Below are positions 1 through 61,532 of a stretch of DNA of 64,000 nucleotides, piece by piece. Every line of letters begins with the position of its first letter. Position 1 is the stretch's first letter. The notes under the pieces were generated by a model that saw only the letters and a list, made by a program, of their open reading frames with translations, was not told the DNA's origin and made no database searches. This DNA is from Candidatus Parcubacteria bacterium (GTDB taxonomy: Bacteria; Patescibacteriota; Microgenomatia; UBA12405): the NCBI GenBank assembly GCA_023443725.1, contig JAEZTF010000010.1:29948-93947 (forward strand), written 5' to 3'. Position numbers and translations under genes: made by a program.

Positions 1-39
1 AGAAATGTTACTTTTGAGATCAAAATCTATCAAAAACGT
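1..39. repeat. Copy 1 of a ~40-bp imperfect direct repeat (AGAAATGTTACTTTTGAGATCAAAATCTATCAAAAACGT); partner at 719..758
   Basis: Direct comparison of the two copies shows 2 substitutions and 1 extra A. The window edge may truncate this copy. Confidence 0.8.
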
Positions 40-73
40 TCCAACTTCGTCCCACACGGCCCGCAAAGTAATT

Positions 74-98
74 AATCCCCTATTTTAGGGGATTTTTT
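74..98 (+). terminator. GC-clamped hairpin AATCCCC-TATTTTA-GGGGATT followed by a T-run (intrinsic-terminator-like on + strand)
   Basis: 7-bp stem with a T-tract at 93..98. A related hairpin (ATCCCCTATTTGGGGA) recurs at 18921..18936. Confidence 0.5.
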
Positions 99-4504: not shown

Positions 4505-5116
4505 TTGATATTTAGTTATAGTTTTTTATTATCATCAAATAATATGAATTTGAAGCGACTTAAAAGGAAATATTTTAATTCTACAGAAGAAATTGTAAGC
4601 ATGTTTTTGGGTTTAGTAATTGTGATGGTAGTAGTAGGTTTAATATTTAATTTTTTCCAAAGAAAAAAAGGAAACATCGCTATTCCTGGTTCTAGTGATA
4701 TTGAAATTAGCCAAAACGTAAAAGAAAATGTTAGCGAAAATGAATATGTTGTTAAGAAAGGAGATAATTTATGGAAAATAGCTGTTGATAAATATAAAGA
4801 TGGTTATAAATGGAGTCTGATTGCTAAAGAAAATAATTTAAAGAATCCTGGTAGTCTTGAGATTGGCCAAAAATTGATTTTACCTAAAATAGATAGTGAA
4901 GTTTTGACTGATGGTTCAACAACAAAAAAAGATACTAATTTATTAGTTGGGTCTGAATATAAAGTTGTTAAAAATGACAGTTTATGGAAAATATCAGTCA
5001 AGGTTTATGGTGATGGATATCAATGGGTAAAGATTTGGCAGGTTAATAAAATAAAACTTAATGATCCAAATAGTTTGGAAATTGGTATGATTTTAACGAT
5101 ACCGAGCTTGAAATAG
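4505..5116 (+). CDS. Membrane-anchored protein with two LysM peptidoglycan-binding repeats
   Basis: Two LysM repeats (YVVKKGDNLWKIA...IGQKLILP and YKVVKNDSLWKIS...IGMILTIP) and one TM helix. The true start is probably the ATG at 4544. Confidence 0.75.
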   Translation: MIFSYSFLLSSNNMNLKRLKRKYFNSTEEIVSMFLGLVIVMVVVGLIFNFFQRKKGNIAIPGSSDIEISQNVKENVSENEYVVKKGDNLWKIAVDKYKDGYKWSLIAKENNLKNPGSLEIGQKLILPKIDSEVLTDGSTTKKDTNLLVGSEYKVVKNDSLWKISVKVYGDGYQWVKIWQVNKIKLNDPNSLEIGMILTIPSLK

Positions 5117-5139
5117 TTCGCATGCTAAAATAAATCGTT

Positions 5140-5210
5140 GCGGCTATAGTTTAGTGGTAAAATGTGTCCTTCCCAAGGATAAGTCGAGGGTTCAATTCCC
5201 TCTAGCCGCT
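5140..5210 (+). tRNA. tRNA-Gly (anticodon CCC)
   Basis: Manual cloverleaf: acceptor GCGGCTA/TAGCCGC, anticodon loop TT-CCC-AA, T-arm GAGGG-TTCAATT-CCCTC, discriminator T. No encoded CCA. Confidence 0.9.
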
Positions 5211-5225
5211 CTCTTTTTATATTAG

Positions 5226-5296
5226 GCCGATATAGTTCAACGGCAGAACTGCGGTTTCGTAAACCGTCGATGGTAGTTCGACTCTACCTATCGGCT
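5226..5296 (+). tRNA. tRNA-Thr (anticodon CGT)
   Basis: Manual cloverleaf: acceptor GCCGATA/TATCGGC, anticodon loop TT-CGT-AA, T-arm GGTAG-TTCGACT-CTACC. No encoded CCA. Confidence 0.9.
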
Positions 5297-5324
5297 CTGA
5301 AAATTTGATACAATAAGTAACATT

Positions 5325-6038
5325 ATGGCTGAATTTAAAAGATCAAGGTTGGCTCGAAGAAATGACGAGACAGTAACAAAAAAGACTGTCTTTATGGGTT
5401 TTTTGACAATTTTGTCAATCATATTAGTAATATTATTTGGCTTACCATTGTTAGTAAAGTTTTCTGTTTTTTTGGGAAATACTAAGAAAGTAGACAGTTC
5501 TGATAAAAAACTAGTTCCACCATTGGCACCTAGATTGGTAATACCTTATGAAGCAACTAATAGTGCTAATATTTCTGTTAATGGATTTACTGAGGTTGGA
5601 GTTGAAGTAGAATTATTTAAAAATGAAGTTTCAATAGGTAAGACACAGGTTACAGAAAGTGGAGATTTTGTTTTTAAAAATATTCCTTTAGATGATGGAG
5701 ATAATAGTTTTAGTGCCTTAGCAATAAGTAAAGAGGCTGGTTCTAGTGACGGTTCAGTTCCTATAGTTGTATCTTTTGATAATAAAGCTCCCGATTTAAA
5801 AATAACTAATCCGGCTGAATCTGAATTGACAATAGATTATGCTGATTTTGATGTTATTGGAGAGTCGGAGAAAGATACTAGTGTAACGATTAATGGAAAA
5901 GTAGCCGTAGTTGATGATGATGGTAAGTTTAAATTAAAGTTTCAACTCAATATGGGTAAAAATGAATTAGAAGTAATAAGTAGAGATTTGGCAGGAAATG
6001 AAACTAAAAAAAAGATAACAATTACTTACAGTCTTTAA
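5325..6038 (+). CDS. Membrane-anchored extracytoplasmic protein with beta-rich (Ig-like) repeats
   Basis: N-terminal TM helix followed by beta-strand-pattern repeats (SVNGFTEVGVEVELFKN..., TINGKVAVVDDDGKF...). The fold assignment is inference. Confidence 0.5.
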   Translation: MAEFKRSRLARRNDETVTKKTVFMGFLTILSIILVILFGLPLLVKFSVFLGNTKKVDSSDKKLVPPLAPRLVIPYEATNSANISVNGFTEVGVEVELFKNEVSIGKTQVTESGDFVFKNIPLDDGDNSFSALAISKEAGSSDGSVPIVVSFDNKAPDLKITNPAESELTIDYADFDVIGESEKDTSVTINGKVAVVDDDGKFKLKFQLNMGKNELEVISRDLAGNETKKKITITYSL

Positions 6039-7111: not shown

Positions 7112-7863
7112 AGCTTAGATTTATTTAAAAAGACATGAAAACTAAGGCAGAGTGCCATAATAATTCCTGGAGTTCCATCTAAAAATCCAAATCTAAAGAT
7201 ATAGTTTTGGAGAAATTTACCAATTGGAAAGAAAATAATTTCAAAAAGATTAGTAGAAACTTTTTGGTCAAATAATTCTTGAGATCTAATAGTGGAATAA
7301 AGATCAATTTTCTCCATAAAAGATTTTAAATTTTTATGAGAATTATGATTAATAACTAAATCTGTTTCTTTGGTTGTTTTTACAGATACCCAAGTTTCAT
7401 GAACCTGACCATCAAATTTACCAAAATTTTTATTGAACAATCGAGTGAATTTTAAAGAAGCCGTTTCACCATGTTTTAACGTATTACCAAGGAAGATGTC
7501 TTGGCGTTTAAAAGAATAATTGTTATATTTATGTTTATCGATATGATTTAAAAATCCGATTAATTTTTTACTTGGATATTCGTCAGCATCAAGCCAAAAG
7601 ACTAAATCATTGGATGCTTTGCAAATTCCAAAATTACGTTGAGCGGAAAAATCATTATTTAATCCCCTATTAAAGACTTTAACATTTCTGTTTTTTGAAT
7701 TTAATTTTTTAGCAGTTTCGACAGTATCGTCTGTAGAATTGTCATCGACAATAATTACTTCATTAATAGTTTTGCATTCGTCTAACCATTTAAAATTGTT
7801 CTTTAAATTTTCCGATTCGTTTTTGGTGATCAGGAGAAGCGAGATGTTAGTCAATTTTTTCAT
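7090..7863 (-). CDS. Glycosyltransferase family 2
   Basis: LLLITKNESENL...IIVDDNSTDDT...DADEY (GT-A DxD). Confidence 0.75.
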   Translation of the reverse strand: MKKLTNISLLLITKNESENLKNNFKWLDECKTINEVIIVDDNSTDDTVETAKKLNSKNRNVKVFNRGLNNDFSAQRNFGICKASNDLVFWLDADEYPSKKLIGFLNHIDKHKYNNYSFKRQDIFLGNTLKHGETASLKFTRLFNKNFGKFDGQVHETWVSVKTTKETDLVINHNSHKNLKSFMEKIDLYSTIRSQELFDQKVSTNLFEIIFFPIGKFLQNYIFRFGFLDGTPGIIMALCLSFHVFLNKSKLWHLSQL

Positions 7864-12833: not shown

Positions 12834-12909
12834 TGGTGGTCGCTACAGGACTCGGACCTGTGACAACCGCAATGTGAATGCGGTGCTCTACCAACTGAGC
12901 TAAGCGACC
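12834..12909 (-). tRNA. tRNA-Val (anticodon CAC) with genomically encoded CCA
   Basis: The reverse complement folds as GGTCGCT...anticodon loop TT-CAC-AT...T-arm...AGCGACC-A-CCA. Confidence 0.9.
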
Positions 12910-52758: not shown

Positions 52759-53910
52759 TCATTTTACTAAATTTTTATCAAAAACATTCATTATTGATTT
52801 GGCGGTGTTTTCCCAACTAAATTTGTCGGCTTGTTGTTTGCCAATTAATGAATATTTTTGCCTAACTTTGGGCTGTAAAATCTCAACCATTCTTTCAACC
52901 AGATCTGATTCTTTATTAGGGTCGATAAACAAACCACATTCAGCAACTACTTCTTTAAATGGAGGTATATGGGAAACTATTACCGGGGTGCCAATTTTCA
53001 TAGATTCAATAGCAGGAATACCAAAACCTTCATAAGTACTTGGTAAAATTGAAGCTATAGCATTTTGATAAAGAGTCCATTTTTGATCGTTATCAACAAA
53101 ATCTGTAAAAATCACCTTATCTTCTATCCTCTCTTTTTTGACAGTTTGAAAAATTTCTTCGAATAACCAACCTTTTTTACCAGCAATAACGAGTTTAGGA
53201 ATCAATCTTCCCCCATCCCCTTCTTTGACAAGACGGGGGGTAATATTATTTTGTTTTAAATATTTTGAATAAGATCGAATTAAAAAAGGAATGTTTTTGT
53301 TGGGTTTGAGAGTACCGAGGTATAGAAAGTAACTATTAGCTTTTAGTGAGTAGTTAGACAAAATTTTTTGTTGAGTTGTTTGATCAATTTTTGGTGGAGT
53401 GTCGACACCGTTGTAAGCAATACTAATTTTTTGTGGGTCAATAGAATAAGTTTTGATGATTTCGTCTTTGGAAAATTGGGAAACAGTACAGATATGTTTG
53501 GATTTTTTAATTGATTGAATAGTCCAATTTATGAGTTGATATAAATCTTTTTTGGTAAATTGGGATTGATATTTAAGATAACCGAGATCATGAATAGTAG
53601 GAATAGTAGGACAAGGACAAATAATTGGTGAATAATGACTAGGAGAAAAGAATAAATCTAATTTTTCAGTTTGAAAAAAAAGATGTAATGGCAGAGAAAA
53701 ACGTGTCCATAATTTTTTAGGGCCAAAAACACGATATTGCCAATTGGCATTAGCGGAAGGTAAATCTGATGATGGTTGATCTTTAAGATAAATAATATAT
53801 TGATTATTTTTGTCTAATTGATGGAGTTTAATTAAAACATTGAAAGCATATTGACCAACGCCAACTTTATTAGAAACATTAGCTTCGTTACCATCGATTC
53901 CGATTAGCAT
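52759..53910 (-). CDS. Glycosyltransferase family 4 (carries hairpin module D1 in-frame)
   Basis: GVGQYAFNV N-terminus and YEGFGIPAIESMKIGTPVI. Confidence 0.8.
   Translation of the reverse strand: MLIGIDGNEANVSNKVGVGQYAFNVLIKLHQLDKNNQYIIYLKDQPSSDLPSANANWQYRVFGPKKLWTRFSLPLHLFFQTEKLDLFFSPSHYSPIICPCPTIPTIHDLGYLKYQSQFTKKDLYQLINWTIQSIKKSKHICTVSQFSKDEIIKTYSIDPQKISIAYNGVDTPPKIDQTTQQKILSNYSLKANSYFLYLGTLKPNKNIPFLIRSYSKYLKQNNITPRLVKEGDGGRLIPKLVIAGKKGWLFEEIFQTVKKERIEDKVIFTDFVDNDQKWTLYQNAIASILPSTYEGFGIPAIESMKIGTPVIVSHIPPFKEVVAECGLFIDPNKESDLVERMVEILQPKVRQKYSLIGKQQADKFSWENTAKSIMNVFDKNLVK
53201..53240. repeat. Hairpin module D1 (ATCAATCTTCCCCCATCCCCTTCTTTGACAAGACGGGGGG) inside a GT4 CDS
   Basis: About 33/37 identical to 56907..56944 in a different GT4 gene. 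Contains the CCCC-TTCTT-TGAC-AAGAC-GGGG stem-loop and encodes RLVKEGDGGRLI. Confidence 0.7.
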
Positions 53911-56044: not shown

Positions 56045-56492
56045 TTATTTTTGATAGATCGATGATATCGCCTGCTTTAAGGTTTATTTTTTTAGTTTCA
56101 TTTAGATTTAACTCAATGACATATTTAGCTGGTTGACTATTTTGAAGGATTTTAGTGGAGTTAGTTTCACTAACATTAATAATATCGGTAACCTTACCTT
56201 CTGAATTAAGCCAAATCATGTCTAAAGGAATGAACGTATCTTTCATCCAGAAAGGTAGAACTCCATTTTTGGAAAAAATAAAAATCATGCCACAGTTAGG
56301 ACAAAGGTTGGTTCGATTGGATAGACCAGCTGATTTTTGAGGAGTGGTTTTGGCGACTTCTAATTTGTAATCGATATTTTTAATTTTTAAATTGACAGTT
56401 TCAAACTTAGGTGGCGTTTTTTTGTAAAAGAAAAAAATAACAATTGGAATAGCGATGAGTATAATTAAAGTGATGGTAAGATTTTTTGACAT
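56034..56492 (-). CDS. DUF192 (COG1430-like) domain protein, membrane anchored
   Basis: SAGLSNRTNL...GMIFIF...FWMKDTFIPLDMIW pattern. Confidence 0.65.
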   Translation of the reverse strand: MSKNLTITLIILIAIPIVIFFFYKKTPPKFETVNLKIKNIDYKLEVAKTTPQKSAGLSNRTNLCPNCGMIFIFSKNGVLPFWMKDTFIPLDMIWLNSEGKVTDIINVSETNSTKILQNSQPAKYVIELNLNETKKINLKAGDIIDLSKINDQ

Positions 56493-57748
56493 ATTTTTTG
56501 ACTAACTTTGTTCCAAGTATAATTATTTTTAACATATAAATAACCATTTTGGCCAAATTGACGACAAAGTTTAGGATTAAAAATTAATTGTTGAATTTTT
56601 TGCTGAAGATCATCAATATCATCAGTTTTGAAAGTTAACCCCCCGTTTGATGATTTAACAATTTCTTTTAAAGATGGAATATCTGAAGTAATAACGGCTT
56701 TTTTTCTAGCCCAACTTTCTACTAGAACAAGGCCAAAACTTTCCTGAATTGATGGTAAAACTAAAAATTGGCATTGATCAATAATTGTAATTAAGTCTTT
56801 ATTGCTAACATTAAATTTGAAATGAATTTGTTTTTGGACCGATTTGGGAAGTGATTCAAAATATTTTTTTATTTGAGGAAAAAATAAAGTTTTTTGACCA
56901 ACAAGTATCAATCTTCCCTTAATCCCTTCTTTGACAAGACGGGAAAAACTATTTATTAACAAGTCGACACGTTTATGGGCGGCAAGAGAACCAATAAATA
57001 AGATTGTCAAACCCTTTCCGGATAAACCGGTTTTTCCCTTAAAAAGGGAAACTTTTTTTTCTTTTTTTAAAAATATATCCTCAACACCGTTGCCGGCAAG
57101 AATAATTTTTTTTTGGTTTATATTTAATTTTTTAATAAAAAAATCAGTTTCATATTTAGTTAAAGTCCAAAGATAATCAGCTTGTTGGAGAGTTTTGATA
57201 AGAGGTAAACGAGAAAAGTCGGGATCTGATTGGTGAAAAGAAGAATTGATGAGAAGTTTAGTGGATAATATTTTTCTGAAAAAATTAGCGTATAGAATAA
57301 TGGTGGTGGGAAGTGGGCCGGCAATAATTAACTCTGGTTTAAATTTAATTATTTTAATAGTAGCCCTAATAAAAGGTATGAGTTTAAAAATTGGTCCTTT
57401 TTGAAAAATTTGTAGCAATTGATGAAAGTAAGAGTTTTTGGGGATAAATAAATTAATAAATTTTAGAGGTCGACGAAGATGATGATAAACAGGAAGATAA
57501 ATAAAACCCTTTCCGGATAAACCGGTTTTTCCCTTAAAAAGGGAAACTTTTAAGCTCCCTTTTTTAAGGAGAGATGTCTGAAAGACAGAGGGGTTTTTCT
57601 TAATGAAATCGTCGGTGCTAGAGCAATCGGACGATAAATAAATTACATCATGGCCTTGAGATTCTAATTGATGGCTAAGTTGATAAACTACTTTTGATCC
57701 CCCATCGATAGCGGGAGGAAAAATATGACTAATTGCAAGTATTTTCAT
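56465..57748 (-). CDS. Glycosyltransferase family 4 carrying three in-frame hairpin-repeat segments
   Basis: MKILAISHIFPPAIDGGSK N-terminus and QESFGLVLVESWARKKAVI. The peptide KVSLFKGKTGLSGKG occurs twice. Confidence 0.8.
   Translation of the reverse strand: MKILAISHIFPPAIDGGSKVVYQLSHQLESQGHDVIYLSSDCSSTDDFIKKNPSVFQTSLLKKGSLKVSLFKGKTGLSGKGFIYLPVYHHLRRPLKFINLFIPKNSYFHQLLQIFQKGPIFKLIPFIRATIKIIKFKPELIIAGPLPTTIILYANFFRKILSTKLLINSSFHQSDPDFSRLPLIKTLQQADYLWTLTKYETDFFIKKLNINQKKIILAGNGVEDIFLKKEKKVSLFKGKTGLSGKGLTILFIGSLAAHKRVDLLINSFSRLVKEGIKGRLILVGQKTLFFPQIKKYFESLPKSVQKQIHFKFNVSNKDLITIIDQCQFLVLPSIQESFGLVLVESWARKKAVITSDIPSLKEIVKSSNGGLTFKTDDIDDLQQKIQQLIFNPKLCRQFGQNGYLYVKNNYTWNKVSQKICQKILPSL
56907..56944. 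repeat. Hairpin module D2 (ATCAATCTTCCCTTAATCCCTTCTTTGACAAGACGGGA) inside a GT4 CDS
   Basis: Partner of D1. Encodes SRLVKEGIKGRLI. Confidence 0.7.
57010..57057. repeat. Repeat element copy B (half element, 48 nt, two hairpins)
   Basis: 48/48 identical to 57504..57551. Contains the CCGG-ATAAA-CCGG and TTCCCTT-AAA-AAGGGAA hairpins. Confidence 0.85.
57503..57598. repeat. Repeat element copy A (96 nt, four hairpins, AAAACCC/GGGGTTTT termini), exactly 32 codons in-frame
   Basis: Terminal inverted AAAACCC...GGGGTTTT plus internal hairpins. Occupies codons 51-82 of the GT4 gene (KNPSVFQTSLLKKGSLKVSLFKGKTGLSGKGF). Confidence 0.8.
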
Positions 57749-59198: not shown

Positions 59199-59206
59199 TT
59201 TTTAGT

Positions 59207-59307
59207 TTGTCGAGAGAGTCTTAAAAAAGACTAGCAACCGAGCCTCAAAGGGGTCACGGTGCAATTCCCTACTTGGGAGGACAAGCCTTTATAAATTTAA
59301 ATAAAGG
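59207..59307 (+). promoter_or_regulatory. SAM-I-clan riboswitch-like leader (minimal P2/P4 variant) with an SD-sequestering hairpin
   Basis: P1 UUGUC/GACAA; J1/2 GAGAG; P2 AGUCUU-AAAAA-AGACU; AGCAACC...GGUGC (P3) followed by AAUUCC (as in the SAM-I J3/4); mini P4 CCC-UACUU-GGG; then CCUUUAU-N8-AUAAAGG covering the AAGGA SD. Sits upstream of metK. Confidence 0.6.
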
Positions 59308-59313
59308 AAAAAT

Positions 59314-60432
59314 ATGAATTATTCCCTATTTACGTCAGAATCAGTTTGTGCTGGTCATCCCGATAAAATTTGTGACCAAATTTCAGATACTGTTTTAGAT
59401 ACTGCTTTAGAAATTGATAGAAATTCAAGAGTTGCTTTAGAAACTTTAGTGACCACTAATAAAGTAATAATGGCAGGCGAAGTGACTTGTAGTAAAAAAT
59501 TAGACTATGGACAAATCGCAAAACAAGTAATTAAAGATTTAGGTTATACTAATCCTCTTTTAGGTTTTGATACAAATGCAGACATAGAAGTATTGGTTCA
59601 TCAACAATCAAAAGATATTGCAATTGGAGCCGATAATGACGGTGCAGGTGATCAAGGAATGATGTTTGGTTATGCTTGTAATGAAACACCACAATTGATG
59701 CCATTATCAATTATGTTGTCACAAGAATTATGCAAAAAAATGGATAAACTGCAGTTTGAAAGATTAAATTATTTAAGACCAGATGGTAAGGCAGAAGTGA
59801 CAATTAAATATAATCAAGGAAAACCAGTGGAAATAGTAAAAGTGGTTTTGGCTAAACCAATGGATCTAATAGTTGAAGATACTCAAGCAAAAAAAGATTT
59901 GTATGAATTGGCTGTGTTGCCAATTTTGGAAAAATATAAACTTAATAAAGTAAGCGTAGAAAATGTAATTTTAAATGGTACAGGTAGATGGGAAATTGGT
60001 GGACCAGCAACAGATACTGGAGTAACTGGTCGAAAAATTGTAGTCGATACTTATGGTGGTATGGGACGAATTGGTGGAGGATGTTTTTCAGGTAAAGATC
60101 CAACAAAAGTAGATAGAAGTGCAGCTTATGCTGCTAGATTTATTGCCAAAAATGTAGTGGCTGCAGGATTGGCTGATCGTTGTGAAGTCCAATTGGCCTA
60201 TGTAATTGGTGTTAGAGATCCAATTTCAAAAGCAATTGAAACTTTTGGAACAAACAAAAAAGAAATAAATAAAATTGAAGAATTTGCTTGGAATTTAATG
60301 AATTTATCGGTTAAAGGAATAATTGATAAATTTGATTTAAAAAGACCAATTTACAAAAATACAGCTAGATATGGTCATTTTGGATATGATGAATATCCTT
60401 GGGAACAAATCAAAACCCCTCTGTCTCGATAA
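59314..60432 (+). CDS. metK: S-adenosylmethionine synthetase
   Basis: GHPDKICDQISD, GAGDQGMMFGYA, GGGCFSGKDPTKVDRSAAY. Confidence 0.95.
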   Translation: MNYSLFTSESVCAGHPDKICDQISDTVLDTALEIDRNSRVALETLVTTNKVIMAGEVTCSKKLDYGQIAKQVIKDLGYTNPLLGFDTNADIEVLVHQQSKDIAIGADNDGAGDQGMMFGYACNETPQLMPLSIMLSQELCKKMDKLQFERLNYLRPDGKAEVTIKYNQGKPVEIVKVVLAKPMDLIVEDTQAKKDLYELAVLPILEKYKLNKVSVENVILNGTGRWEIGGPATDTGVTGRKIVVDTYGGMGRIGGGCFSGKDPTKVDRSAAYAARFIAKNVVAAGLADRCEVQLAYVIGVRDPISKAIETFGTNKKEINKIEEFAWNLMNLSVKGIIDKFDLKRPIYKNTARYGHFGYDEYPWEQIKTPLSR

Positions 60433-60464
60433 ATCGAGACATCTCCCCTTGAAAAAGGGAGAAG
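60412..60464. repeat. Repeat element copy C (related to the second half of element A), overlapping the last 6 codons and stop of metK
   Basis: AAAACCCCTCTGTCT[CGATAAATCGAG]ACATCTCCCCTTGAAAAAGGGAG versus the coding-strand reading of A, AAAAACCCCTCTGTCT[TTCAG]ACATCTCTCCTTAAAAAAGGGAG. Confidence 0.75.
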
Positions 60465-60551: not shown

Positions 60552-61532
60552 ATGATTTTAATTGTTGGTGGAGCGGGATATATCGGATCCCATATTAATA
60601 AAGAATTAAACAAACAAGGTTTTAAGACAGTAGTTTTTGATAATTTATCTTCTGGAAAAAAAGAATTGGTTAAATGGGGTGAATTTTTTGAAGGCGATTT
60701 AGGAAACATTGAAAATATCAGAGAGGTTTTTAAAAAATATCCAATTGAAGCAGTATTACATTTTGCTGCTTTTAAAGCAGTTGGTGAATCAGTCATTGAT
60801 CCGCAAAAATATTATCAAAACAATGTGGCTAATACTTTAAATTTATTTAAAGTGATGTTGGAAAACAATGTGAAGAAATTTATTTTTTCTTCTTCAGCAG
60901 CGACTTTTGGTGAACCTCAATACATCCCAATTGATGAAAAACATCCACAAAGTCCAATAAATCCTTATGGTGAAACCAAATTGATAGTGGAACATATTAT
61001 GCGAGATTATAGTAAAGCTTATGATTTTAGATATATATCTTTAAGATACTTTAATGCTTGTGGGGCTGATTTAGACGCAGATGTAGGTGAATGGCCCGGT
61101 AGTAGTTCAAATTTAATTCCATTAGTTTTAGATGCAGCAATTGGTAGACGAGAAGATATCAAAGTTTTTGGGACTGATTATGAGACACCAGACGGTACTT
61201 GTGTTCGTGATTATATTCATGTAACTGATTTAGCAGATGCTCACGTATTGGCTTTGAAATATTTAATGGATGGCAAGGAAAGCCAATGTTTTAATTTAGG
61301 AAATGGTAAAGGATTTTCAGTTAAAGAAGTAATTGATGCAGCCAAAAAAATAACTGGAATTGATTTTAAAGTTACTAATGCTGACAGACGAGCTGGTGAT
61401 CCTCCAACTTTGGTGGCTGATGCAAAATTGGCCAGAGAAGTTTTGGGTTGGAATCCACAATATGCTGATTTAGAAACTATTGTTGCCAGCGCGTGGAAAT
61501 GGCACCAAAAAGTATGTAAGCTAATTAGCTAA
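60552..61532 (+). CDS. galE: UDP-glucose 4-epimerase
   Basis: GGAGYIGSH, SSSAATFG, YGETK and the overall SDR-extended pattern. Confidence 0.9.
   Translation: MILIVGGAGYIGSHINKELNKQGFKTVVFDNLSSGKKELVKWGEFFEGDLGNIENIREVFKKYPIEAVLHFAAFKAVGESVIDPQKYYQNNVANTLNLFKVMLENNVKKFIFSSSAATFGEPQYIPIDEKHPQSPINPYGETKLIVEHIMRDYSKAYDFRYISLRYFNACGADLDADVGEWPGSSSNLIPLVLDAAIGRREDIKVFGTDYETPDGTCVRDYIHVTDLADAHVLALKYLMDGKESQCFNLGNGKGFSVKEVIDAAKKITGIDFKVTNADRRAGDPPTLVADAKLAREVLGWNPQYADLETIVASAWKWHQKVCKLIS

What the first reader, a model, noticed from the sequence alone, without database searches (positions are those of the whole stretch)
57010..57598. Hairpin-rich palindromic repeat element inserted in-frame (twice) inside one GT4 glycosyltransferase gene
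57503..57598 is a 96-nt (exactly 32-codon) segment bounded by inverted termini AAAACCC...GGGGTTTT. It contains four short GC-clamped hairpins: CCGG-ATAAA-CCGG, TTCCCTT-AAA-AAGGGAA, CTCCCTT..AAGGAG and TGTCT-GAA-AGACA. Its first 48 nt recur with 48/48 identity at 57010..57057 in the same ORF. As a result the protein carries KVSLFKGKTGLSGKG twice, while the flanking DNA is unrelated. The insertions fall after the N-terminal nucleotide-sugar domain strand and near the inter-domain region of a GT-B enzyme, and they keep the reading frame. This is the behaviour established for Rickettsia palindromic elements (selfish palindromic DNA tolerated inside protein-coding genes). I am not aware of it being described for this type of genome.
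Basis: partly seen in the sequence, partly recalled or inferred. Interest (0 to 1): 0.7.

Follow-up and report, generated by a model that had tools for sequence, protein, structure and literature searches.

The report
Nuclease-linked hairpin repeats inside bacterial genes
Two translated stretches inside a sugar-transferase gene of an uncultured ultra-small (CPR) bacterium are copies of a small selfish hairpin DNA element, and related genomes show these elements are the detached ends of a tiny unit carrying its own DNA-cutting enzyme gene, giving a testable lead on how such in-gene repeats spread.

Summary
A 48-nt exact repeat (57009-57056 = 57504-57551) lies in-frame twice in a GT4 glycosyltransferase gene on the minus strand (56465..57748), and 57503-57598 is a 96-nt, 32-codon hairpin-rich segment with AAAACCC...GGGGTTTT termini. 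The RPE-like reading is supported and can be extended. The DNA is base-for-base identical in Candidatus Shapirobacteria genomes whose GT4 genes are only ~68% identical. The element also occurs in intergenic DNA (rpmI-rplT spacer) and in antisense orientation at the same loop. A sister family is translated in at least five strand/frame combinations inside unrelated housekeeping genes (DnaA, PheT, MurB, TsaD and others). Both GT4 insert sites are modelled as disordered loops, and 64 of 120 orthologs have no recognisable cassette. New here: the 96-nt segment is the left end (F4) plus the right end (F1) of a ~0.55-kb unit, AAACCC-F4-[DUF559/Vsr-like endonuclease gene]-F1-GGGTTT, with the gene missing. 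A filled/empty locus pair exists. No nuclease gene lies within the ~84 kb examined of this genome. How the elements move (nuclease-driven copying) is inferred, not shown. I found no prior report for CPR bacteria.

The parts
56465..57748 (-). Host gene: GT4 (GT-B fold) glycosyltransferase, 427 aa, in a conserved polysaccharide/cell-envelope gene cluster (LPG_synthase_TM | GT4 | DUF192 | GT2 | GT4 | GT4 ...)
   Evidence: ORF list. Pfam Glycos_transf_1 1.6e-30 over aa 237-403. Orthologs are Candidatus Shapirobacteria. Synteny. AF2 model pTM 0.77.
57503..57598 (-). 96-nt two-ended, gene-less element (F4 left end + F1 right end), codons 51-82 (KNPSVFQTSLLKKGSLKVSLFKGKTGLSGKGF). Termini are AAAAACCCC...AAAGGGTTTT on the coding strand.
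   Evidence: Aligns to both boundaries of group-A DUF559 units, with the junction GGGAG-CT|..|AAAAG-TTTCCC. Folds at z = -4.2 with the termini paired. pLDDT < 50 over aa 44-86.
57552..57598 (-). F4 module (left end): AAAAACCCC + hairpin TGTCT-TTC-AGACA + imperfect hairpin CTCTCCTT-AAAA-AAGGGAG
   Evidence: Compensated stem variant TGTTT/AAACA in L013. The same module precedes the TATAAT/ATG of DUF559 genes.
57503..57551 (-). F1 module (right end), copy 1: hairpin TTTCCCTT-TTT-AAGGGAAA + hairpin CCGG-TTTAT-CCGG + AAAGGGTTT. Encodes KVSLFKGKTGLSGKGF.
   Evidence: Identical over 47 nt to the 3' end of the L043 DUF559 gene.
57009..57056 (-). Solo F1 module, copy 2, in the inter-domain linker just before the first strand of the C-terminal Rossmann domain (aa ~232-247)
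   Evidence: 48/48 identity. pLDDT < 50 over aa 232-244. Absent from the 88%-identical ortholog P0002 and most others.
56909..56943 (-). Degenerate F2b-type module encoding RLVKEGIKGRL (GT4 'site 4', aa 270-281). The 5' CCCC arm is eroded.
   Evidence: 46 bits against a shuffle maximum of 28. 89% identical over 37 nt to the copy in the paralog (family D15). Sequences. Modelled with high confidence as helix end, loop and strand start.
53203..53238 (-). F2b-type module encoding PRLVKEGDGGRL inside the paralogous GT4 gene 52759..53910. L002, L013, L046 and L072 carry an F2 module at the same site.
   Evidence: RNA fold -18 kcal/mol, z = -2.1.
60412..60461 (+). Solo F4 module straddling the end of metK (59314..60432). 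It supplies the last residues KTPLSR, with the stop codon in the loop of hairpin TGTCTCGA-TAAA-TCGAGACA, followed by hairpin CTCCCCTT-GAAA-AAGGGAG. It is read in a different frame from the GT4 copy (KTPLS versus KNPSV).
   Evidence: Fold z = -4.3, 0 of 200 shuffles.

Best explanation
The segments are non-autonomous copies of a selfish DNA element family of Candidatus Shapirobacteria and related CPR bacteria. The parent unit is about 0.55 kb. It has a left end 'F4' that begins AAACCC and ends just before a TATAAT box and the ATG, then a ~150-aa DUF559 (Vsr-like, PD-(D/E)XK) endonuclease gene, then a right end 'F1' that encodes the nuclease's last ~16 residues and finishes GGGTTT. The window's 96-nt segment is left end plus right end with the gene missing, the way a MITE relates to its parent element. 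The 48-nt copy is a solo right end. Shown: the elements are copied as DNA, because they have identical bases across diverged genomes, occur in both orientations and several reading frames, and occur in intergenic as well as coding DNA. They survive inside genes only where their stop-free, G+C-rich hairpins add a peptide to a tolerant surface loop, so they are translated as loop insertions. Inferred: spread is driven in trans by a DUF559 nuclease encoded elsewhere in the genome. It would cut at or near the hairpin ends or at permissive sites, and repair from another copy (homing or gene-conversion-like) would paste in or replace the cassette. That would also explain why different cassette types replace one another at the same few loops.
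For: DNA-level element: F1 is 39-50 nt identical in the window, L001, L002 and L004, while the genes are 68% identical and third-codon positions in identical residues match only ~60%. Both L001 copies share the same two private changes. Non-homologous sites: the genome scan gave 9 hits, of which 3 are in GT4 and 6 are outside ORFs, including the rpmI-rplT spacer in three genomes. F1 is antisense at GT4 site 1 in L077. Frames: F2 is read as PCPVKGR, PALSREG, PCQGKG, KPFPxPSLDRA or NPSxxLPLTG in different hosts. F3 and F4 are each read in two frames. Hosts are unrelated: DnaA, PheT, MurB, MiaA, TsaD, Sua5-TsaE, Fpg, UvrD, QueH, VirB4/TraG-like and others. Loops: the only pLDDT < 50 segments are aa 44-86 and 232-244. 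Parent unit: about 11 group-A DUF559 genes are bounded by F4 and F1. Homology between unrelated loci starts at AAACCC and stops at GGGTTT, and the window's 96 nt align to both ends. L085 has perfect 33-nt terminal inverted repeats. 13 of 54 F1-type copies lie within 60 nt of a DUF559 gene, against about 1.4% of the DNA. Nearly all of 120 DUF559 homologs end in hairpin-encoded tails that track the nuclease lineage. L008/L011 is a filled/empty pair in which a 432-nt gene insert is flanked by a duplicated ~20-nt hairpin. Hairpins are maintained by compensated changes. Precedent: the Vsr/DUF559 clade includes a proven homing endonuclease and free-standing genes with 5' hairpins (PMC3424549, PMC3239194, PMC2677866).
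Against: No DUF559 gene lies in the window or in the ~20 kb beyond it, so a trans-acting nuclease in this genome is assumed and not shown. No nuclease activity, cleavage site or target-site duplication was established; only the rpmI-rplT copy shows a possible AAATTAAAA flank repeat. PD-(D/E)XK nucleases are not known to perform strand transfer, and it is unclear how single-hairpin solo ends enter essential genes without a lethal intermediate. F2-type copies are almost all far from any DUF559 gene (73 of 76). The association could partly reflect hairpin elements accumulating around, or serving as terminators or insulators for, DUF559 genes. F1 copy number is low: 2 in ~84 kb here, and 9 strict-pattern hits across about 185,000 species genomes. 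F1's perfect conservation across diverged genomes might instead reflect a host-level function.
Confidence: 0.6

Rival explanations
1. Orphan palindromic repeat (pure RPE/REP-like) with no enzymatic link to DUF559. The hairpin modules would spread by a host process such as replication slippage or template switching at hairpins, or recombination between short GGGTTT/AAACCC ends. They would merely accumulate at the borders of DUF559 genes, or be used there as terminators or insulators.
For: 73 of 76 F2-type and 31 of 54 F1-type copies have no DUF559 gene within 500 nt. No DUF559 gene in ~84 kb of this genome. RPEs themselves have no known transposase (PMC10969869). The hairpin at the gene's 3' end could act as a terminator.
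Against: The gene's C-terminal codons lie inside the right-end hairpin in nearly all of 120 homologs down to ~46% identity, with lineage-specific hairpin types. Units have sharp common boundaries and in L085 perfect 33-nt inverted repeats. There is a filled/empty pair. The roughly 17-fold enrichment of F1 next to DUF559 is hard to obtain by passive accumulation.
Confidence: 0.22
2. The conserved hairpin sequence is primarily a functional nucleic-acid signal (an RNA stability, termination or regulatory element, or a protein-binding site) maintained by host selection. The copies inside GT4 would be incidental or regulatory, for example translational pausing between domains.
For: F1 is invariant across diverged genomes. 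It sits in the rpmI-rplT operon spacer in three genomes. Most F1-type copies are intergenic, often directly after or before genes. The stems are maintained by compensated changes.
Against: No Rfam family matches. Isolated 48-nt modules do not fold better than shuffles (z about -1). The copies occur in both orientations and in several frames, and are replaced by unrelated cassette types at the same loop in close relatives. That does not fit a position-specific function. A host function also does not explain the DUF559 unit structure.
Confidence: 0.12
3. Local intragenic duplication or gene conversion confined to the GT4 gene, or an ancestral, protein-level functional loop motif of this enzyme family.
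For: In this window both F1 copies are in one gene. The same loops carry cassettes in many orthologs.
Against: The identical DNA occurs in unrelated loci and in intergenic DNA. 64 of 120 orthologs have no recognisable cassette and F1 occurs only 11 times. There is no synonymous variation. F1 occurs in antisense orientation at the same site. The segments are modelled as disordered.
Confidence: 0.03
4. Assembly or binning artefact (a collapsed or chimeric repeat).
For: Metagenome-assembled genome. Repeats break assemblies, and many DUF559 contigs are only 0.6-1 kb.
Against: An independent assembly is identical over 11.9 kb. The same arrangement is seen in several samples and sources. The reading frame is intact with a confident fold on both sides.
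Confidence: 0.01

Closest known systems
Rickettsia palindromic elements (RPE-1 to RPE-10; Ogata et al. 2000; reviewed in PMC10969869)
   Same: Short palindromic repeat families in a small, A+T-rich, reduced genome. They are found in intergenic DNA and inserted in-frame into many unrelated housekeeping genes, are translated as extra surface segments, and form several families per genome.
   Different: Different phylum (CPR/Patescibacteria versus Alphaproteobacteria). The modules are much shorter (35-50 nt, or 96 nt two-ended, versus about 100-150 bp). The same element is used in several frames and both strands. Cassettes replace one another at fixed loops. Here a candidate parent unit with a nuclease gene is visible, whereas no mobilising enzyme is known for RPEs. 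Sequence similarity to RPEs was not tested.
MITEs and their parent insertion sequences (e.g. Correia, ERIC/RU, RUP, Nezha; PMC10969869, PMC2759123)
   Same: Gene-less derivatives that keep both ends of a longer coding unit. They have short terminal inverted repeats (AAAACCC/GGGTTTT), can occur inside genes as in-frame fusions, and presumably move in trans.
   Different: The parent encodes a DUF559/Vsr-like PD-(D/E)XK nuclease and not a DDE, serine or Y1 transposase. No target-site duplication was established. Single-end 'solo' modules are the commonest form.
REP sequences and REPtrons (RAYT/TnpA-REP genes flanked by REPs; PMC3733652)
   Same: 20-40-nt G+C-rich imperfect hairpins, mostly extragenic. 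The enzyme gene is flanked by its cognate hairpins, and the hairpin type co-varies with the enzyme lineage.
   Different: There is no GTAG/CGTC head; the termini are AAACCC/GGGTTT. The flanked gene is DUF559 and not a Y1 (HUH) transposase. Frequent in-frame coding copies are not typical of REPs.
Free-standing Vsr-like (EDxHD) homing endonuclease genes, e.g. I-Bth0305I and the 'fractured gene' loci (PMC2677866, PMC3239194)
   Same: Same nuclease clade (Vsr/DUF559/DUF2726 in PMC3424549). Small free-standing selfish genes with hairpins upstream of the start codon that invade conserved genes. A filled/empty locus pair exists.
   Different: Those genes sit in introns, next to inteins or splitting genes, and no dispersed gene-less hairpin derivatives are described for them. 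Here the protein is only ~150 aa with no obvious separate DNA-binding domain, and the abundant products are translated hairpin cassettes.
Mobile G+C clusters and coding palindromes of A+T-rich organelle genomes (yeast mitochondrial GC clusters, from my own knowledge; Nematomorpha coding palindromes, PMC6649704; placozoan mtDNA hairpins, PMC7813641)
   Same: G+C-rich hairpins scattered through an A+T-rich genome, including in-frame copies inside protein genes.
   Different: Organellar versus bacterial. No associated nuclease gene with the same ends is known for them.

Membership tests
Rickettsia palindromic elements (RPE) | Palindromic repeat present in multiple copies in both intergenic DNA and in-frame inside unrelated ORFs | tested here: met
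Rickettsia palindromic elements (RPE) | Sequence homology to one of the RPE-1..10 consensus sequences; ~100-150 bp; genus Rickettsia | not tested
   No RPE consensus was available to align. The size (35-96 nt) and host phylum (Candidatus Shapirobacteria) differ, so I do not file it as an RPE.
Rickettsia palindromic elements (RPE) | Insertions lie on the protein surface and are compatible with the fold | tested here: met
   AF2: the only pLDDT < 50 segments are aa 44-86 and 232-244, and the rest is a confident GT-B fold. This is a prediction, not a solved structure.
MITE | Terminal inverted repeats | tested here: met
   AAAACCC/GGGGTTT(T) termini of the 96-nt unit pair in the fold. L085 has perfect 33-nt TIRs around the gene. 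The TIR of the window copy is short (7-8 nt).
MITE | Longer autonomous relative sharing both ends | tested here: met
   Group-A DUF559 units share the left (F4) and right (F1) ends, and the window's 96 nt align to both.
MITE | Parent encodes a transposase | tested here: not met
   The only ORF is DUF559 (PF04480, 8e-27; PDB 3hrl 2e-12), a Vsr-like nuclease and not a known transposase.
MITE | Target-site duplication | tested here: inconclusive
   A possible AAATTAAAA flank repeat in the rpmI-rplT spacer. None is evident at the GT4 sites. In L008 a ~20-nt hairpin is duplicated around the gene.
REP / REPtron | 20-40-nt G+C-rich imperfect palindrome, mainly extragenic, with enzyme gene flanked by cognate repeats | tested here: met
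   31 of 38 F1-type copies are outside ORFs. DUF559 genes are flanked by the modules.
REP / REPtron | Conserved GTAG or CGTC head and a RAYT (Y1/HUH, PF01797) gene | tested here: not met
   The termini are AAACCC/GGGTTT and the flanked gene is DUF559.
Free-standing homing endonuclease gene (Vsr-like/EDxHD) | Nuclease of the Vsr/DUF559 clade with intact catalytic core | tested here: met
   PF04480 hits 2e-24 to 8e-27. Alignment to 3hrl keeps the D..E.DG..H...D..R core. The clade assignment follows PMC3424549.
Free-standing homing endonuclease gene (Vsr-like/EDxHD) | Gene-containing and gene-less alleles of the same locus | tested here: met
   L008 (filled) versus L011 (empty): a 432-nt difference, with flanks 78-81% identical. 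One pair only.
Free-standing homing endonuclease gene (Vsr-like/EDxHD) | Site-specific cleavage of the gene-less allele followed by repair-mediated copying | not testable with these tools
   Requires biochemistry or genetics.

The most novel reading that the evidence does not exclude
A previously unrecognised class of bacterial selfish element: a minimal unit made of a DUF559/Vsr-like endonuclease gene between hairpin ends. Its detached ends (35-96 nt) are copied by nuclease-triggered repair into intergenic DNA and, in-frame, into surface loops of essential proteins across CPR bacteria. This would make the elements a continuing source of loop-sequence turnover in these reduced genomes, and would give the first enzymatic explanation for RPE-type 'coding palindromes'.
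Probability: 0.4. Interest if true: 0.85.

Novelty: new variant of a known kind. Interest (0 to 1): 0.78.

Why it matters
In-frame palindromic repeats inside genes have been known from Rickettsia since 2000, but how they move has never been explained, because no enzyme is linked to them. Here the same behaviour appears in an unrelated, uncultured lineage (CPR/Patescibacteria). The repeats can be traced to the two ends of a tiny unit that encodes a Vsr-like endonuclease, and a filled/empty locus pair exists. That turns an old descriptive puzzle into an experiment: express the 150-aa protein and test it on the 48- and 96-nt DNAs. It also matters practically. These cassettes inflate and diversify loops of conserved proteins (DnaA, PheT, TsaD, MurB, glycosyltransferases), break metagenome assemblies, and can mislead alignments, phylogenies and structure predictions for CPR proteins. 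It also suggests a biological role for part of the large, uncharacterised DUF559 family.

Tried and rejected
- G+C-island scan of the window: 50 islands, mostly ordinary coding or tRNA DNA, so not discriminating.
- Family-independent search for perfect G+C-clamped hairpins in the window: 6 found against ~1.4 in mononucleotide shuffles. Only the metK copy belongs to the family. The hairpin at 74-94 followed by a T-run looks like an ordinary terminator, and 7660-7669 is a chance decamer.
- Rfam at gathering and permissive thresholds: nothing on any cassette. A mir-553 match at E = 0.8 is noise.
- Folding isolated 48-nt modules: not better than shuffles. Only the composite and the metK copy are significant, so I do not claim thermodynamic significance for a single module.
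- tblastn of 120 DUF559 proteins against the window: only the F1-encoded tail matches. A 60-aa alignment upstream of site 3 (E 3e-6) is carried by the 16 identical residues plus lysine-rich sequence and was rejected as homology.
- Extending ~10 kb beyond each end of the window: no DUF559 gene and no further copy.
- DGR idea (a bAvd/23S_rRNA_IVP gene lies next to metK in L001, L013 and L014): rejected. The variation consists of discrete cassette swaps and not adenine-directed substitutions, and the gene is absent from the window.
- P-loop-like reading of GKTGLSGKG: rejected, because the same DNA occurs untranslated and in antisense.
- The F6 (STIYHLR) and F7 (LLKANSYLLPAK) cassettes at GT4 sites 2 and 4 are not G+C hairpins but short direct repeats. 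I did not connect them to the DUF559 units.
- Literature searches for such elements in CPR/Patescibacteria and for DUF559 mobility found no prior description. The library lacks most subscription journals, so absence is not proof.
Full report
**1. The observation**

The region lies in a 427-aa ORF on the minus strand (56465..57748). Pfam identifies it as a GT4/GT-B glycosyltransferase, with Glycos_transf_1 at 1.6e-30 over aa 237-403.

It has only these two matches in the window with up to three mismatches allowed, and none in 100 shuffles. Segment 57503-57598 is 96 nt and corresponds exactly to codons 51-82. AAAACCC is at 57503-57509 and GGGGTTTT at 57590-57597. Both 48-mers start at the same codon phase and encode KVSLFKGKTGLSGKG.

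The isolated halves are not individually significant. A second, independent assembly is 100% identical over 11.9 kb, including the whole gene.

**2. Not an ancestral protein feature**

The orthologs are from Candidatus Shapirobacteria, a CPR/Patescibacteria lineage. In an alignment of 30 orthologs the enzyme is highly conserved except at about four fixed sites:
- site 1, aa ~50-83;
- site 2, after aa ~160;
- site 3, aa ~228-248;
- site 4, aa ~270-280.

At these sites a small set of peptide cassettes recurs in different combinations and at different sites. Across 120 orthologs the F1 peptide occurs 11 times (7 at site 1, 4 at site 3), and 64 orthologs have no recognisable cassette. P0002, 88% identical to the window protein, has the site-1 segment but not the site-3 copy. 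P0003 has the reverse.

An AlphaFold2 model (pTM 0.77) is confident everywhere except aa 44-86 and 232-244. These are exactly the two cassette-bearing segments, and they have no secondary structure. The first lies between strand 34-39 and helix 87-99 of the N-terminal domain. The second lies in the linker before the first strand of the C-terminal domain.

**3. A DNA-level element**

- The cassette DNA TTTCCCTTTTTAAGGGAAAAACCGGTTTATCCGGAAAGG is identical in the window (twice), L001 (twice), L002 and L004. The window and L002 share 50/50 nt. Yet the genes are ~68% identical, and third-codon positions in identical residues match only ~60%.
- In L001 both copies carry the same two private substitutions.
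- A scan of one genome per species (~185,000 genomes) with the hairpin loops left free found nine matches. Three are in GT4 orthologs and six are outside long ORFs. The six include the rpmI-rplT spacer in three genomes and positions just upstream of start codons.
- In L077 the element sits at GT4 site 1 in antisense orientation.

**4. A superfamily with one plan, used in many frames and hosts**

DNA from the variable sites of eight orthologs defines several families:

| Family | Encoded peptide |
|---|---|
| F1 | KVSLFKGKTGLSGKGF |
| F2 | PCPVKGRxREGF |
| F2b | PRLVKEGxxGRL |
| F3 | FPSFLQRRGLRGRF |
| F4 | KNPSVFQTSLLKKGSL |
| F5 | not characterised further |

All share one plan: a G+C-rich arm, a short loop, the complementary arm, a spacer or second small hairpin, and a partial repeat of the second arm ending in GGGTTT. 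Stems show compensated changes (TGTCT/AGACA versus TGTTT/AAACA). 12 of 13 variants of F1's second hairpin keep a 4-5-bp stem, using at least five different stem sequences. Nested insertions also occur.

F2 is translated in two sense frames and on the antisense strand in L002, L016 and L001.

In the first 80 loci:
- 31 of 38 F1-type copies lie outside ORFs of at least 100 aa;
- 29 of 48 F2-type copies lie inside ORFs, in five strand/phase combinations.

The hosts are unrelated housekeeping proteins: DnaA, PheT, MurB, MiaA, a MiaB-like enzyme, TsaD, Sua5-TsaE, Fpg, UvrD, RadA-like, QueH, VirB4/TraG-like ATPases, pilins, ATP-grasp enzymes and glycosyltransferases. This is the behaviour described for Rickettsia palindromic elements (PMC10969869).

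**5. Inventory in the window**

A scan with the cassette library, against a shuffle background of at most 28 bits, finds six copies:
- F1 at 57009-57055 and 57504-57550;
- F4 at 57551-57598;
- F4 on the plus strand at 60412-61, straddling the end of metK;
- F2b at 56909-56943 (GT4 site 4);
- F2b at 53203-53238 (the paralogous GT4 gene 52759..53910, at a site where other genomes carry F2).

The metK copy supplies the last residues KTPLSR, places the stop codon in a hairpin loop, and is read in a different frame from the GT4 copy. F4 therefore occurs on its own, and in other orthologs it is paired with F2 or F3 instead of F1.

**6. The parent unit**

In the scan loci, F1-type elements repeatedly form the 3' end of ~150-aa ORFs. 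These ORFs are DUF559 proteins (PF04480, to 8e-27; nearest solved structure 3hrl, 'endonuclease-like protein', 2e-12).

About eleven 'group A' genes are organised as AAACCC-[F4-type module]-TATAAT-ATG...DUF559...[F1-type module]-GGGTTT. Aligning units from unrelated loci shows that homology starts at AAACCC and stops at GGGTTT. The window's 96-nt segment aligns to both ends, with the junction GGGAG-CT|...|AAAAG-TTTCCC. Its right half is identical to the 3' end of the L043 gene. So the 96-mer is the two termini of such a unit without the ~450-nt interior, and the 48-mer is a solo right end.

Other DUF559 lineages end in F2-type modules (L037, L042) or have perfect 33-nt terminal inverted repeats (L085). 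Of 120 DUF559 homologs down to ~46% identity, nearly all end in hairpin-encoded tails (xSLFKG in 47; also ASLSREV, SPPCQGRG, LSLVKGR, LLPFLRGD). Many sit on 0.6-1-kb contigs, as expected of repeats that break assemblies.

Over all 120 scan loci (830 kb), 13 of 54 F1-type copies are within 60 nt of a DUF559 gene (11 at its 3' end on the same strand), and 10 more are within 500 nt. Such neighbourhoods cover only ~1.4% of the DNA. F2-type copies are nearly all solo.

L008 and L011 form a filled/empty pair. A 432-nt DUF559 segment is present in L008 between two copies of a ~20-nt hairpin that occurs once in L011, and the flanks are 78-81% identical.

**7. Mechanism**

Shown:
- copying at the DNA level;
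- tolerance limited to loops, termini and intergenic DNA;
- the structural relation between the short elements and the DUF559 units;
- one presence/absence pair.

Inferred:
- that the DUF559 nuclease drives the copying. The Vsr/DUF559 clade contains a proven homing endonuclease (I-Bth0305I) and free-standing genes with 5' hairpins (PMC3424549, PMC3239194, PMC2677866). DUF559 genes are also enriched at inverted-repeat loci (PMC9881135);
- that short copies are mobilised in trans. No DUF559 gene lies in the window or in ~20 kb beyond it;
- that cassette replacement at the same loop reflects break repair or gene conversion templated by other copies.

Weak points: no target-site duplication was established, it is unclear how solo ends enter essential genes, and F2 copies are rarely near a nuclease gene.

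**8. Comparison and novelty**

The element works like an RPE and like a MITE/REPtron, but it fails defining features of each. It is shorter than RPEs and in a different phylum. Its parent unit encodes a PD-(D/E)XK nuclease and not a transposase or RAYT. It lacks the GTAG/CGTC head of REPs. It resembles Vsr-like free-standing homing endonuclease genes in its enzyme and in the filled/empty pair, but dispersed, translated, gene-less ends are not described for those.

Full-text searches found no description of such elements in CPR bacteria, nor of DUF559 units with gene-less derivatives. The library is incomplete, so this is not proof of absence.

I rate it a new variant of a known kind. The descriptive core is very likely correct (about 0.9). 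The nuclease-driven mechanism is plausible but unproven (about 0.4-0.5).

Noticed in passing
window 59202-59323 (+): SAM-I/IV riboswitch aptamer (Rfam RF01725, 42.7 bits against a gathering score of 41.1) directly upstream of metK (59314..60432). Its 3' part is conserved upstream of metK in L015 and L016.
   Followed up: partly
window 5140-5210 (+), 5226-5296 (+), 12837-12909 (-): Three tRNA genes, which account for some of the G+C-rich islands in this 30% G+C window.
   Followed up: partly
window 1-98 and 668-758; L138 6790-6879, 7642-7789: ~90-nt segments repeated at 94-97% identity around tandem ORFs (a 184-aa ORF in the window; two 244-aa ORFs in L138). This looks like a tandemly duplicated small gene family of unknown function.
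   Followed up: no
GT4 orthologs, sites 2 and 4 (e.g. L002 gene aa 144-154; L013 gene aa 293-308): Two further recurrent cassettes, (K)ISTIYHLR(S/P)N and LLKANSYLLPAK/LLNNYS (23 and 13 occurrences in 120 orthologs). They are not G+C hairpins but contain short direct repeats (ATCTACGA x2; GCTAAAA x2). Their origin is unexplained.
   Followed up: partly
L001 52-393, L013 188-544, L014 6910-7257: A 23S_rRNA_IVP/bAvd-family gene sits next to metK in several related genomes but is absent at that position in the window, where an epimerase gene (60552..61532) follows.
   Followed up: no
L116 9424-9516 and 10877-11026: A group-A DUF559 gene split into N- and C-terminal parts by ~1.36 kb of inserted DNA, possibly a nested insertion into the unit itself.
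   Followed up: no
L043 (minus-strand view 4900-5900): Tandem array around one DUF559 unit: an F1 variant, then F4-DUF559-F1, then a second F4-like module with a nested insert, then a short remnant and another F1. The flanks repeat CTATTCTTGCTATGAAGTAAGTTAAAG...AAAGACTAGTTGATTATCC. This suggests repeated insertion or deletion at one locus.
   Followed up: partly
L024, L073, L091, L097, L106, L126: A distant DUF559 lineage (~31% identity) with a GTCCCCTTTTTAAGGGGAC hairpin upstream and an antisense F1-type module (AAACCCTTCCCCCTGCGGGTACTTCCC...) immediately after its stop codon. The gene is therefore oriented the other way round relative to the AAACCC/GGGTTT ends.
   Followed up: no
L137 11386-12048: An HTH_3 plus Gp49 (HigA/HigB-like toxin-antitoxin) gene pair just beyond the window's right end.
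   Followed up: no
L002 7871-7907: In the 906-kb relative, the C-terminus of MetK carries an F2 module read on the antisense strand (TNPSPSLPLTGQG), at the place where the window's metK carries an F4 module. The 3' end of metK is therefore another recurrent insertion hot spot.
   Followed up: partly
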